A program made the translations under genes and the position numbers. DNA of 64,000 nt from Octopus vulgaris (lineage: Eukaryota), in contig OX597838.1 of NCBI GenBank assembly GCA_951406725.2, forward strand, positions 30,318,001 to 30,382,000, given 5' to 3'. The notes beneath the pieces are model-generated. The model searched no databases. It was not told the DNA's origin and saw only the letters and a program-made list of their open reading frames with translations. Every line of letters starts with the position of its first letter. The stretch's first letter is position 1. Shown here piece by piece: positions 14,845 through 15,601 of this stretch.

Positions 14845-15601
14845 AATATTACATTATATAATTAGGGCTTAGTAAAATAAATTACTTTGCCACATACTGA
14901 ACTTAGTAGAAATAGCAGCCAAAAAAAAAAAAAAAAAAAATTTTTCTTAGCATTTCTACTACTTAAAGAAAATTTCTCTCAGATAATGTTTACTCCAGAC
15001 AGCTCACGAAGGTTTGGGGGTAAATACAGAAAAATATCACAAGTACATAGATCGTTTGAGTACGTCAACGTTTCAAGATTAGCCAAATAAAATCAGCATT
15101 TCTTTCGTCAGCTCAAAATTTCTTAATTTGGATTTGGAAACACTAAAAAGAAGGAACTTTACCTATCAGCGAACTTGTCGCTTCAGATGAACCACTCCAA
15201 CTAAACAGTGTCAACAAATTCAAAATGCGCAGGCGTAAAATTCTGCACTCCCCATTCCACCCACGTGGTCTATCTAGCAAACATTATATTTTAACCGCGA
15301 GAACCGAGGCAGTATGACCGAGAGAAATGAATTATAATATCAACAATTGAGGGTAAAATTAATTAATTAATCAATTTCACCAAGTGTTCAGTATGTAAAA
15401 GGACCATTTAAGGCGAATTCAAAATATTACATTATATAATTAGGGCTTAGTAAAATAAATTACTTTGCCACAAATTTATTTTACTAAGCCCTAATTATAT
15501 AATGTAATATTTTGAATTCGCCTTAAATGGTCCTTTTACATACTGAACACTTGATGAAATTGATTAATTAATTAATTTTACCCTCAATTGTTGATATTAT
15601 A
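14845..15601 (-). mobile_element. Non-coding hammerhead retroelement (PLE-derived or retrozyme-like) with fold-back end
   Basis: Direct repeat 14845-14894 = 15423-15472 (period 578); inverted repeat 15333-15461/15473-15601; one hammerhead; (TA)n on both sides. Confidence 0.7.
15055..15117 (-). ncRNA. Type I hammerhead ribozyme motif
   Basis: Minus strand: TTTGAG-CTGACGA-AAGA...TCTT-GAAAC-GTTGAC-GTA-CTCAAA. Stem I 6 bp, full core, stem III ACG/CGT, GUA triplet. Confidence 0.85.

What the first reader, a model, noticed from the sequence alone, without database searches (positions are those of the whole stretch)
14845..15601. Retrozyme-like 578-bp unit: slightly more than one turn of a circular or tandem RNA, capped by a 129-bp hairpin
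Seen: 14845-14894 recurs at 15423-15472, with one complete minus-strand hammerhead (15055-15117) in between and no recognisable protein-coding ORF. At 15473 the sequence folds back over 129 bp with one mismatch. Established: metazoan non-LTR retrozymes are tandem hammerhead repeats that yield circular RNAs. Inference: the cDNA was copied from a ~578-nt circle or tandem transcript for about 1.1 turns and then snapped back.
Basis: partly seen in the sequence, partly recalled or inferred. Interest (0 to 1): 0.8.

Follow-up and report, generated by a model that had tools for sequence, protein, structure and literature searches.

The report
Octopus non-coding Penelope element with hammerhead
This is a real 757-base insertion in an octopus intron, most likely a protein-less passenger of Penelope-like jumping genes that carries a self-cutting RNA motif; its repeat-and-hairpin shape is the usual way that class inserts, and a circular RNA remains possible but is not shown.

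Summary
Every observation checks out: an exact 50-bp direct repeat 578 bp apart, one complete type I hammerhead on the minus strand, a 129-bp inverted repeat with one mismatch, and no coding frame. The host is an octopus, and the insert lies in (TA)n in an intron of a VWA-domain collagen-like gene. Partial tandem, 5' inverted arm, one-sided tail and (TA)n target are the published insertion signature of Penelope-like elements (PLEs). Seven other insertions in the window show the inverted-arm and one-sided-tail form, and one of them carries a PLE GIY-YIG C-terminus. In public contigs, copies join (TA)n at 15333-15340, exactly where the inverted arm ends, so end points look preferred rather than freely permuted. 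The 578-nt unit is a multi-copy, ORF-less family whose minus strand folds into a rod with the hammerhead free at its tip, as retrozyme RNAs do. This locus has one hammerhead, so it fails the two-unit retrozyme criterion. Cleavage, circular RNA and the autonomous partner could not be tested. Verdict: a new non-autonomous PLE (retrozyme-type) family member of a known kind.

The parts
14789..14845 (.). (TA)n target, left flank
   Evidence: any target-site duplication is unreadable in the microsatellite
14845..14894 (-). 3' copy of the 50-bp repeat X; its end at 14845 is terminus T1, joined to (TA)n
   Evidence: a relative at 43146-43412 ends 41 nt past the same hairpin arm, against 48 nt here
14893..14901 (-). 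5' arm core (UUCAGUAUG) of a conserved hairpin that pairs with 15387-15395; overlaps a donor-like GTATGT at 14897
   Evidence: duplex -23.8 kcal/mol; two relatives carry UUCGGUAUG/CAUACCGAA, a two-sided change; splice role untested
14920..14941 (-). U-rich tract of about 22 nt (poly-A on plus); not covered by contigs
   Evidence: skipped 14895-14951 as repeat
14972..15031 (-). 3' side of the long rod, pairing with 15328-15241
   Evidence: helices of 11, 12, 6 and 9 bp; inverted similarity reached by 1 of 1000 shuffles
15055..15117 (-). Type I hammerhead ribozyme motif; predicted cut between 15061 and 15060; helix III sequence is self-complementary (10-bp dimer helix)
   Evidence: activity untested
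15241..15328 (-). 5' side of the rod; contains the branch point 15320 where other copies continue into different, non-TA sequence
   Evidence: loose ends before 15320 in all 4 runs
15333..15422 (-). 90-nt tail segment between T1 and terminus T2 (15333-15340); includes the 3' hairpin arm 15387-15395
   Evidence: (TA)n loose ends before 15333, 15337 and 15340; segment 15333-15472 homologous to 41465-41612, 0 of 1000 shuffles
15423..15472 (-). 5' copy of repeat X; 15472 is the 5' truncation point of the direct copy
15473..15601 (+). Inverted 5'-truncated arm (copy of 15461 to 15333), head-to-head with the direct copy, ending at T2 in (TA)n
   Evidence: no microhomology at the inversion junction
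15598..15645 (.). (TA)n target, right flank

Best explanation
A young insertion of an ORF-less, non-autonomous Penelope-like element with a 578-nt unit (the kind of element that is called a non-LTR retrozyme when it forms arrays). Shown: the anatomy, the (TA)n target, the multi-copy family, the preferred terminus T2, the structured minus strand, and the same insertion form in a neighbouring GIY-YIG-coding PLE fragment. Inferred: a Neptune-type PLE protein acting in trans nicked (TA)n and began reverse transcription at an internal site (T1) in the loop of a conserved hairpin. It copied 628 nt of an uncleaved partial-tandem transcript, through the intact hammerhead, to 15472. The inverted arm was then added head-to-head, by snap-back on the new cDNA or by a second priming from the other target strand, and ends at the family's second terminus T2. 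The 90 nt between T1 and T2 is the one-sided PLE tail. The 50-bp repeat is the overlap of a partial tandem.
For: Published PLE signature: partial tandem, inverted 5'-truncated copy, tail at one end, microsatellite target, hammerhead in the pLTR. Of 45 segments between (TA)n runs, 13 contain an inverted repeat, and 7 besides this one have an arm within 0-6 nt of a run plus a one-sided overhang of 32-152 nt. One of these (40699-41437) encodes a C-terminal GIY-YIG fragment: 116 homologues, of which 6 of 7 tested carry GIY-YIG and 3 of 7 also RVT_1. It has a U3-A8-core minimal hammerhead in both arms. Contigs join (TA)n before 15333 (10 contigs) and 15337 (7) in X2, 15340 in X8 (1) and 15337 in X18 (1). 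Relatives at 41467 and 43146 end 66 and 65 nt past the 3' hairpin arm, against 54 nt here. In vitro, a PLE protein cuts AT-rich DNA, extends both strands, starts at two internal stem-loop sites and uses uncleaved RNA. A preprint derives animal retrozymes from PLE pLTRs.
Against: No autonomous partner was tied to this unit. Similarity to the pLTR of the GIY-YIG-coding neighbour is not significant (116 of 1000 shuffles as good), so PLE membership rests on architecture, target and hammerhead. The tail is 90 nt, against 30-40 nt in the papers read. No (TA)n loose end at T1 (15423) is among the 24 rows shown, with 79 more hidden. The tail segment's match to the 43146 relative is not significant (542 of 1000), although its 3' part matches (0 of 1000). 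DNA alone cannot tell a linear from a circular template.
Confidence: 0.72

Rival explanations
1. True non-LTR retrozyme with a circular template. A tandem master locus is cut at two hammerheads and ligated at GUA|CUC into a 578-nt circle, which PLE reverse transcriptase copies for about 1.1 turns from its usual start site. Same enzyme as the best explanation, different template.
For: The unit closes on itself in DNA: continuity across 15472/14895 is seen in X8 loose ends, and 15320 is bridged by X8 record 26 and X18 record 1. The minus strand folds far better than shuffles (z -8.1 circular, -7.1 linear, 0 of 40) and better than the plus strand (z -5.9 against -2.2), with the hammerhead free at the rod tip as described for retrozyme circles. 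GC is 33%. The hammerhead has 6-bp stem I and a 2-bp-plus-tetraloop helix III like invertebrate retrozyme motifs. Circular templates were proposed for PLEs.
Against: One hammerhead at this locus, while the working definition needs two consecutive units. The circular fold is no more stable than the linear one (-155.4 against -155.7). The first pair of stem II is A-U, not the conserved G-C. Only 1 of 9 predicted Xenopus dimers cleaved in vitro, and the anole PLE hammerhead was dispensable for insertion. 578 nt is above the 150-450 bp given for classical animal retrozymes.
Confidence: 0.2
2. The sequence is the unusually long pLTR or 3' end of an autonomous PLE, or a one-off internal deletion of one, and not a family that spreads on its own.
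For: Other copies leave the unit at 15320 into different sequence in all 4 runs, which could be the body of a full element. Most PLE copies are 5'-truncated ends.
Against: Repeat X recurs after 578 nt with no coding remnant between. The closure across 15320 is bridged in two studies and sits inside an 11-bp helix of the rod.
Confidence: 0.05
3. A local duplication, a foldback DNA element (MITE) or an assembly artefact at a microsatellite.
For: The locus's own inversion junction is not listed in the 4 runs laid, and (TA)n flanks are hard to assemble.
Against: The family is held by 20 of 24 listed runs. The inverted repeat is one-sided and not terminal. The hammerhead is not a chance match (0 of 2000). 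The same form recurs at 7 other sites, one with a PLE endonuclease fragment.
Confidence: 0.03

Closest known systems
Insertion architecture of endonuclease-bearing Penelope-like elements (PMC3846280; PMC8557442; PMC11167929)
   Same: Partial tandem, head-to-head inverted 5'-truncated copy, tail at one end only, (TA)n target as for Neptune, Hydra and Naiad, type I hammerhead in the repeat, two termini around a stem-loop.
   Different: No RT or GIY-YIG frame; unit only 578 nt; tail 90 nt instead of 30-40; no autonomous partner identified.
Metazoan non-LTR retrozymes (PMC7229834; bioRxiv 10.64898/2026.07.22.740005)
   Same: Non-coding, low GC, type I hammerhead with short self-complementary helix III, strongly self-paired RNA with the ribozyme left free, probable dependence on PLEs.
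   Different: One hammerhead here and no tandem array seen; longer than 150-450 bp, though within the 51-972 bp of the preprint; long bulged stem II closed by A-U; cleavage and circular RNA not shown; no cephalopod case found in my searches.
Non-autonomous PLE derivatives such as Chlamydomonas MRC1 and solo-pLTR insertions of Adineta (PMC8557442; PMC3846280)
   Same: ORF-less units that form pLTR-like partial tandems and move in trans.
   Different: Animal host, full type I hammerhead, long rod fold; Chlamys elements mostly lack hammerheads.

Membership tests
Penelope-like element (non-autonomous derivative) | Partial tandem forming a terminal direct repeat | tested here: met
   50-bp exact repeat at 578 spacing
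Penelope-like element (non-autonomous derivative) | Inverted 5'-truncated copy adjacent to the 5' end, head-to-head | tested here: met
   15473-15601
Penelope-like element (non-autonomous derivative) | Tail extension at one end only, between two preferred termini | tested here: met
   T2 shown by (TA)n loose ends; T1 supported only by one relative in the window; length 90 nt, longer than the published 30-40
Penelope-like element (non-autonomous derivative) | AT-rich or (TA)n target | tested here: met
   runs 14789-14845 and 15598-15645
Penelope-like element (non-autonomous derivative) | Type I hammerhead in the repeat | tested here: met
Penelope-like element (non-autonomous derivative) | Sequence homology to the pLTR of an autonomous PLE | tested here: inconclusive
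   not significant against the one PLE fragment in the window; no genome held; branch at 15320 could not be followed
Autonomous Penelope-like element | ORF with RT and GIY-YIG endonuclease | tested here: not met
Penelope-like element (non-autonomous derivative) | Retained spliceosomal intron overlapping the pLTR | tested here: inconclusive
   one donor-like site (14897) and one acceptor-like site (15143) on the element strand; no joint at 15143 in contigs
Non-LTR retrozyme | At least two consecutive hammerhead-bearing units | tested here: not met
   one hammerhead at this locus; other loci could not be seen, no contig spans the unit
Non-LTR retrozyme | Non-coding, GC below 45-50% | tested here: met
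   GC 0.33; no ORF
Non-LTR retrozyme | Highly self-paired RNA with the hammerhead free | tested here: met
   (prediction only)
Non-LTR retrozyme | Self-cleavage of the transcript | not testable with these tools
   needs in vitro transcription
Non-LTR retrozyme | Accumulation as circular RNA | not testable with these tools
   only assembled contigs were on offer

The most novel reading that the evidence does not exclude
This is a cephalopod retrozyme: a 578-nt rod-like circular RNA that, unlike the array-bound retrozymes described, lands as dispersed insertions bearing the full PLE footprint (two fixed termini, inverted arm, (TA)n target). It would be direct genomic evidence that PLE RT/GIY-YIG protein copies a hammerhead circle, a step so far only proposed, and it would give a small natural substrate for testing circle-templated priming in vitro.
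Probability: 0.2. Interest if true: 0.6.

Novelty: new member of a known kind. Interest (0 to 1): 0.3.

Why it matters
As it stands, it is an ordinary PLE-type insertion of an ORF-less family that I did not find described, and it shows that hammerhead-bearing non-autonomous PLE units exist in octopus. It is modestly useful because it puts retrozyme-like RNA anatomy and PLE insertion scars in one young copy, which bears on the proposal that PLEs mobilise animal retrozymes. If a 578-nt circle is found, the family becomes a direct test of whether PLE reverse transcriptase uses circular templates.

Tried and rejected
No whole genome is held for this window, so genomic copies could not be aligned. 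Rfam found no hammerhead family at gathering score or at E<=10; the best hits were miRNA models on the hairpin, all below their gathering scores, and I rejected them as generic hairpin matches. blastn found no second close copy in the window. A 30-nt motif scan of metagenome contigs gave 0 hits. No RNA holder was listed in the run search; runs marked RNA are guesses, so nothing here speaks for or against expression. Summed contig depth falls along the element strand away from 15335 in all 4 runs (Spearman -0.80 to -0.96; first bin 46 to 591 times the last). That looks like 5' truncation from a fixed end, but the tool warns that contig depth cannot rank parts of a stretch, so I do not count it as evidence. 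14895-14951 had no cover because the tool skipped it as repeat. X4 record 18 (14966-15349, no differences) and X2 record 15 (11 differences) cross 15320 but have 30 and 26 letters on the short side, under the 31 needed, and are not counted as bridges. The X4 strand switch 15408/15472 is a second inversion junction, but 15472 is the edge of the stretch laid, so I do not claim a recurrent 5' end. Pfam and the word-index search missed the 69-aa endonuclease fragment; HMMER found it. The organisms of its homologues remain unknown. Variant letters at predicted rod pairs were mixed (7 of 16 paired sites keep the pair) and are not used as covariation evidence. Sequence look-ups among earlier findings returned nothing. 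A hammerhead-like string at 2387 (minus) failed the stem tests.

Full report
Observation. 14845-14894 equals 15423-15472 over exactly 50 bp. 15333-15461 and 15473-15601 are inverted arms of 129 nt with one mismatch and an 11-nt spacer. The minus strand carries a complete type I hammerhead at 15117-15055, with the predicted cut between 15061 and 15060. It is the only site passing my descriptor in the window, and 0 of 2000 shuffles of the unit produced one. Rfam did not report it. Helix III is self-complementary and could form a 10-bp dimer helix. The first pair of stem II is A-U, not the usual G-C. There is no long ORF and no similarity to 116 PLE-related proteins better than E=0.01. Both ends run into (TA)n.

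Setting. The insert lies between two plus-strand VWA-domain exons (about 8320-8870 and 18710-19081), so it is antisense in an intron. The first exon is 93% identical to a protein named collagen alpha-1(XII) of Octopus sinensis, so the host is an octopus. No genome was available.

It is a family. Of 24 listed runs, 20 hold at least half of the unit's sampled words, across 7 studies and three organism labels. I laid 4 of them, all contigs, on 14895-15472; 2144, 555, 84 and 41 records aligned. Among the 24 loose-end rows shown (79 not shown), copies join (TA)n before 15333 (10 contigs) and 15337 (7) in X2, 15340 in X8 and 15337 in X18. That is where this locus's inverted arm ends, so it is a preferred family terminus (T2). 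Before 15320, all 4 runs show a different, non-TA continuation, a branch I could not follow. The unit's own continuation across 15320 is bridged by X8 record 26 and X18 record 1, from two studies. X8 also shows repeat X running on into the sequence of 14895, so the supposed circle junction there is ordinary contiguous DNA. One X4 contig has a different strand switch (15408/15472). This locus's own inversion junction was not listed.

The geometry is ordinary in this genome. Of 45 segments between (TA)n runs, 13 contain an inverted repeat. Besides this one, 7 have one arm within 0-6 nt of a run and a one-sided overhang: 17650-17846 (69 nt), 40699-41437 (32), 42557-42784 (123), 42907-43135 (118), 43146-43412 (125), 43465-43669 (66) and 47759-48299 (152). 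I set aside 49128-50505 and 52713-53586 (short or low-identity arms far apart), and three with no flush arm. The 40699 element codes for the C-terminus of a GIY-YIG domain: 116 homologues, 6 of 7 tested with GIY-YIG and 3 of 7 also with RVT_1. I read the linker and CCHH motifs of those homologues as Neptune-type, from the descriptions. It has a minimal hammerhead with a U3-A8 core in both arms, a variant described for PLEs. A real PLE in the same window therefore leaves the same scar. Two insertions are distant relatives of the finding: 41465-41612 matches 15333-15472 (0 of 1000 shuffles), and 43345-43415 matches the 3' end (0 of 1000). The reciprocal comparisons were not significant (87 and 542 of 1000). 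All three share a hairpin whose core is UUCAGUAUG/CAUACUGAA here and UUCGGUAUG/CAUACCGAA in both relatives, one two-sided change that may be a single event. T1 lies 48 nt past the 5' arm here and 41 nt in the 43146 copy; T2 lies 54, 66 and 65 nt past the 3' arm.

RNA structure. The minus strand folds well beyond shuffles (z -8.1 circular, -7.1 linear, 0 of 40) and beyond the plus strand (z -5.9 against -2.2, 26 against 6 G-U pairs). Of 16 control windows (plus strand, 8 shuffles each), 15 lay between +2.6 and -4.1, and the other contains long palindromes. The fold is a rod, 15328-15241 paired with 14972-15031, with the hammerhead free at the tip. The circle is no more stable than the linear form, so the fold does not itself argue for circularity.

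Mechanism. My best reading (0.72) is a non-autonomous PLE unit copied in trans. Shown: anatomy, target, multi-copy family, terminus T2, recurrence of the form with a PLE endonuclease fragment. Inferred: nicking of (TA)n by a Neptune-type protein, priming at T1 in the hairpin loop, copying of 628 nt through the intact hammerhead, and addition of an inverted arm ending at T2. The anole PLE cuts AT-rich DNA, extends both strands, starts at two internal stem-loop sites that define the tail, and uses uncleaved RNA (PMC11167929). For the inverted arm, snap-back is favoured by the 11-nt loop and by both arms carrying the same letters at the family-variable sites 15396, 15400 and 15424; self-priming has been proposed for PLE palindromes (PMC3846280). 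A second priming from the other target strand better explains why the arm stops at T2, and the junction has no microhomology. I cannot separate the two. The template was either an uncleaved partial tandem or a re-ligated circle. A cleaved linear monomer is excluded, because the copy runs through the cut site.

Comparison. It works like a PLE insertion and meets the architectural tests, without an ORF and without a proven partner. It resembles non-LTR retrozymes in composition, hammerhead type and fold (PMC7229834), and a 2026 preprint derives those from PLE pLTRs. It fails the two-unit criterion at this locus, so I do not file it as a retrozyme proper.

Papers seen. bioRxiv 10.64898/2026.07.22.740005, parts 1-3 of 5. 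PMC11167929, parts 1-2 of 4. PMC4209133, parts 1-2 of 4. PMC3846280, passages. PMC8557442, passages and section 11. PMC7229834, passages and sections 13 and 17. PMC13282606, passages: it lists recently active Penelope-like families in Octopus vulgaris and has no occurrence of hammerhead or retrozyme in its main text. Searches found no paper on an octopus retrozyme. I read no supplements; their hammerhead and repeat lists, and Repbase or Dfam, may already hold this family.

Verdict. New member of a known kind, interest 0.3. The open question is whether the family makes a 578-nt circle (probability 0.2, interest 0.6 if so).

Noticed in passing
window 40699-41437 (minus): 5'-truncated Neptune-type PLE: GIY-YIG C-terminal fragment at 41224-41024, 187-bp inverted arms at 99.5%, U3-A8-core minimal hammerhead in both arms (40786 minus, 41318 plus), 32-nt tail, in (TA)n.
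   Followed up: yes
window 41467-41680 and 43146-43412: Two short head-to-head insertions distantly related to the finding, sharing the tail hairpin with a two-sided base change and similar termini; their inversion points lie 15-25 nt upstream of the 5' hairpin arm.
   Followed up: partly
window 17650-17846 and 43465-43669: Two copies of one family of perfect palindromes (128 and 140 nt) with the same centre and a 66-69 nt one-sided tail in (TA)n; each has a CUGANGA...GAAA string cut off by the palindrome centre.
   Followed up: partly
window 42557-42784 and 42907-43135: Two near-identical (97%) palindrome-plus-tail insertions in opposite orientation around one (TA)n run; the tail end weakly resembles T2 of the finding (5 of 1000 shuffles).
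   Followed up: partly
window 47759-48299: A large palindrome (about 390 nt) flush with (TA)n, with a 152-nt one-sided extension.
   Followed up: no
window 14897 and 15143 (minus): A donor-like GTATGT next to the 5' truncation point, and a branch-site, pyrimidine-tract and AG signal about 26 nt upstream of hammerhead stem I; could be a retained PLE-type intron.
   Followed up: partly
window 15066 (variants): A variant in helix III (4 contigs in two runs) makes its loop a perfect palindrome, as expected if the hammerhead works as a dimer.
   Followed up: no
window 15097-15148 (X4 and X18): Contigs match only this stretch, the 5' half of the hammerhead and its upstream flank, with other sequence on both sides or repeated after 17 letters, suggesting related families with different hammerhead 3' halves.
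   Followed up: no
window 8320-8870 and 18710-19081 (plus): Two VWA-domain exons of a collagen XII-like host gene; the finding is in the intron between them.
   Followed up: partly
window 40008-40511 (minus), 49498-50043 (plus), 60860-61117 (plus): Frames that look like mariner transposase remnants (first two) and the C-terminus of a restriction-like-endonuclease non-LTR element (third); labels recalled, not confirmed by a call, and Pfam gave no significant hit for the third.
   Followed up: no
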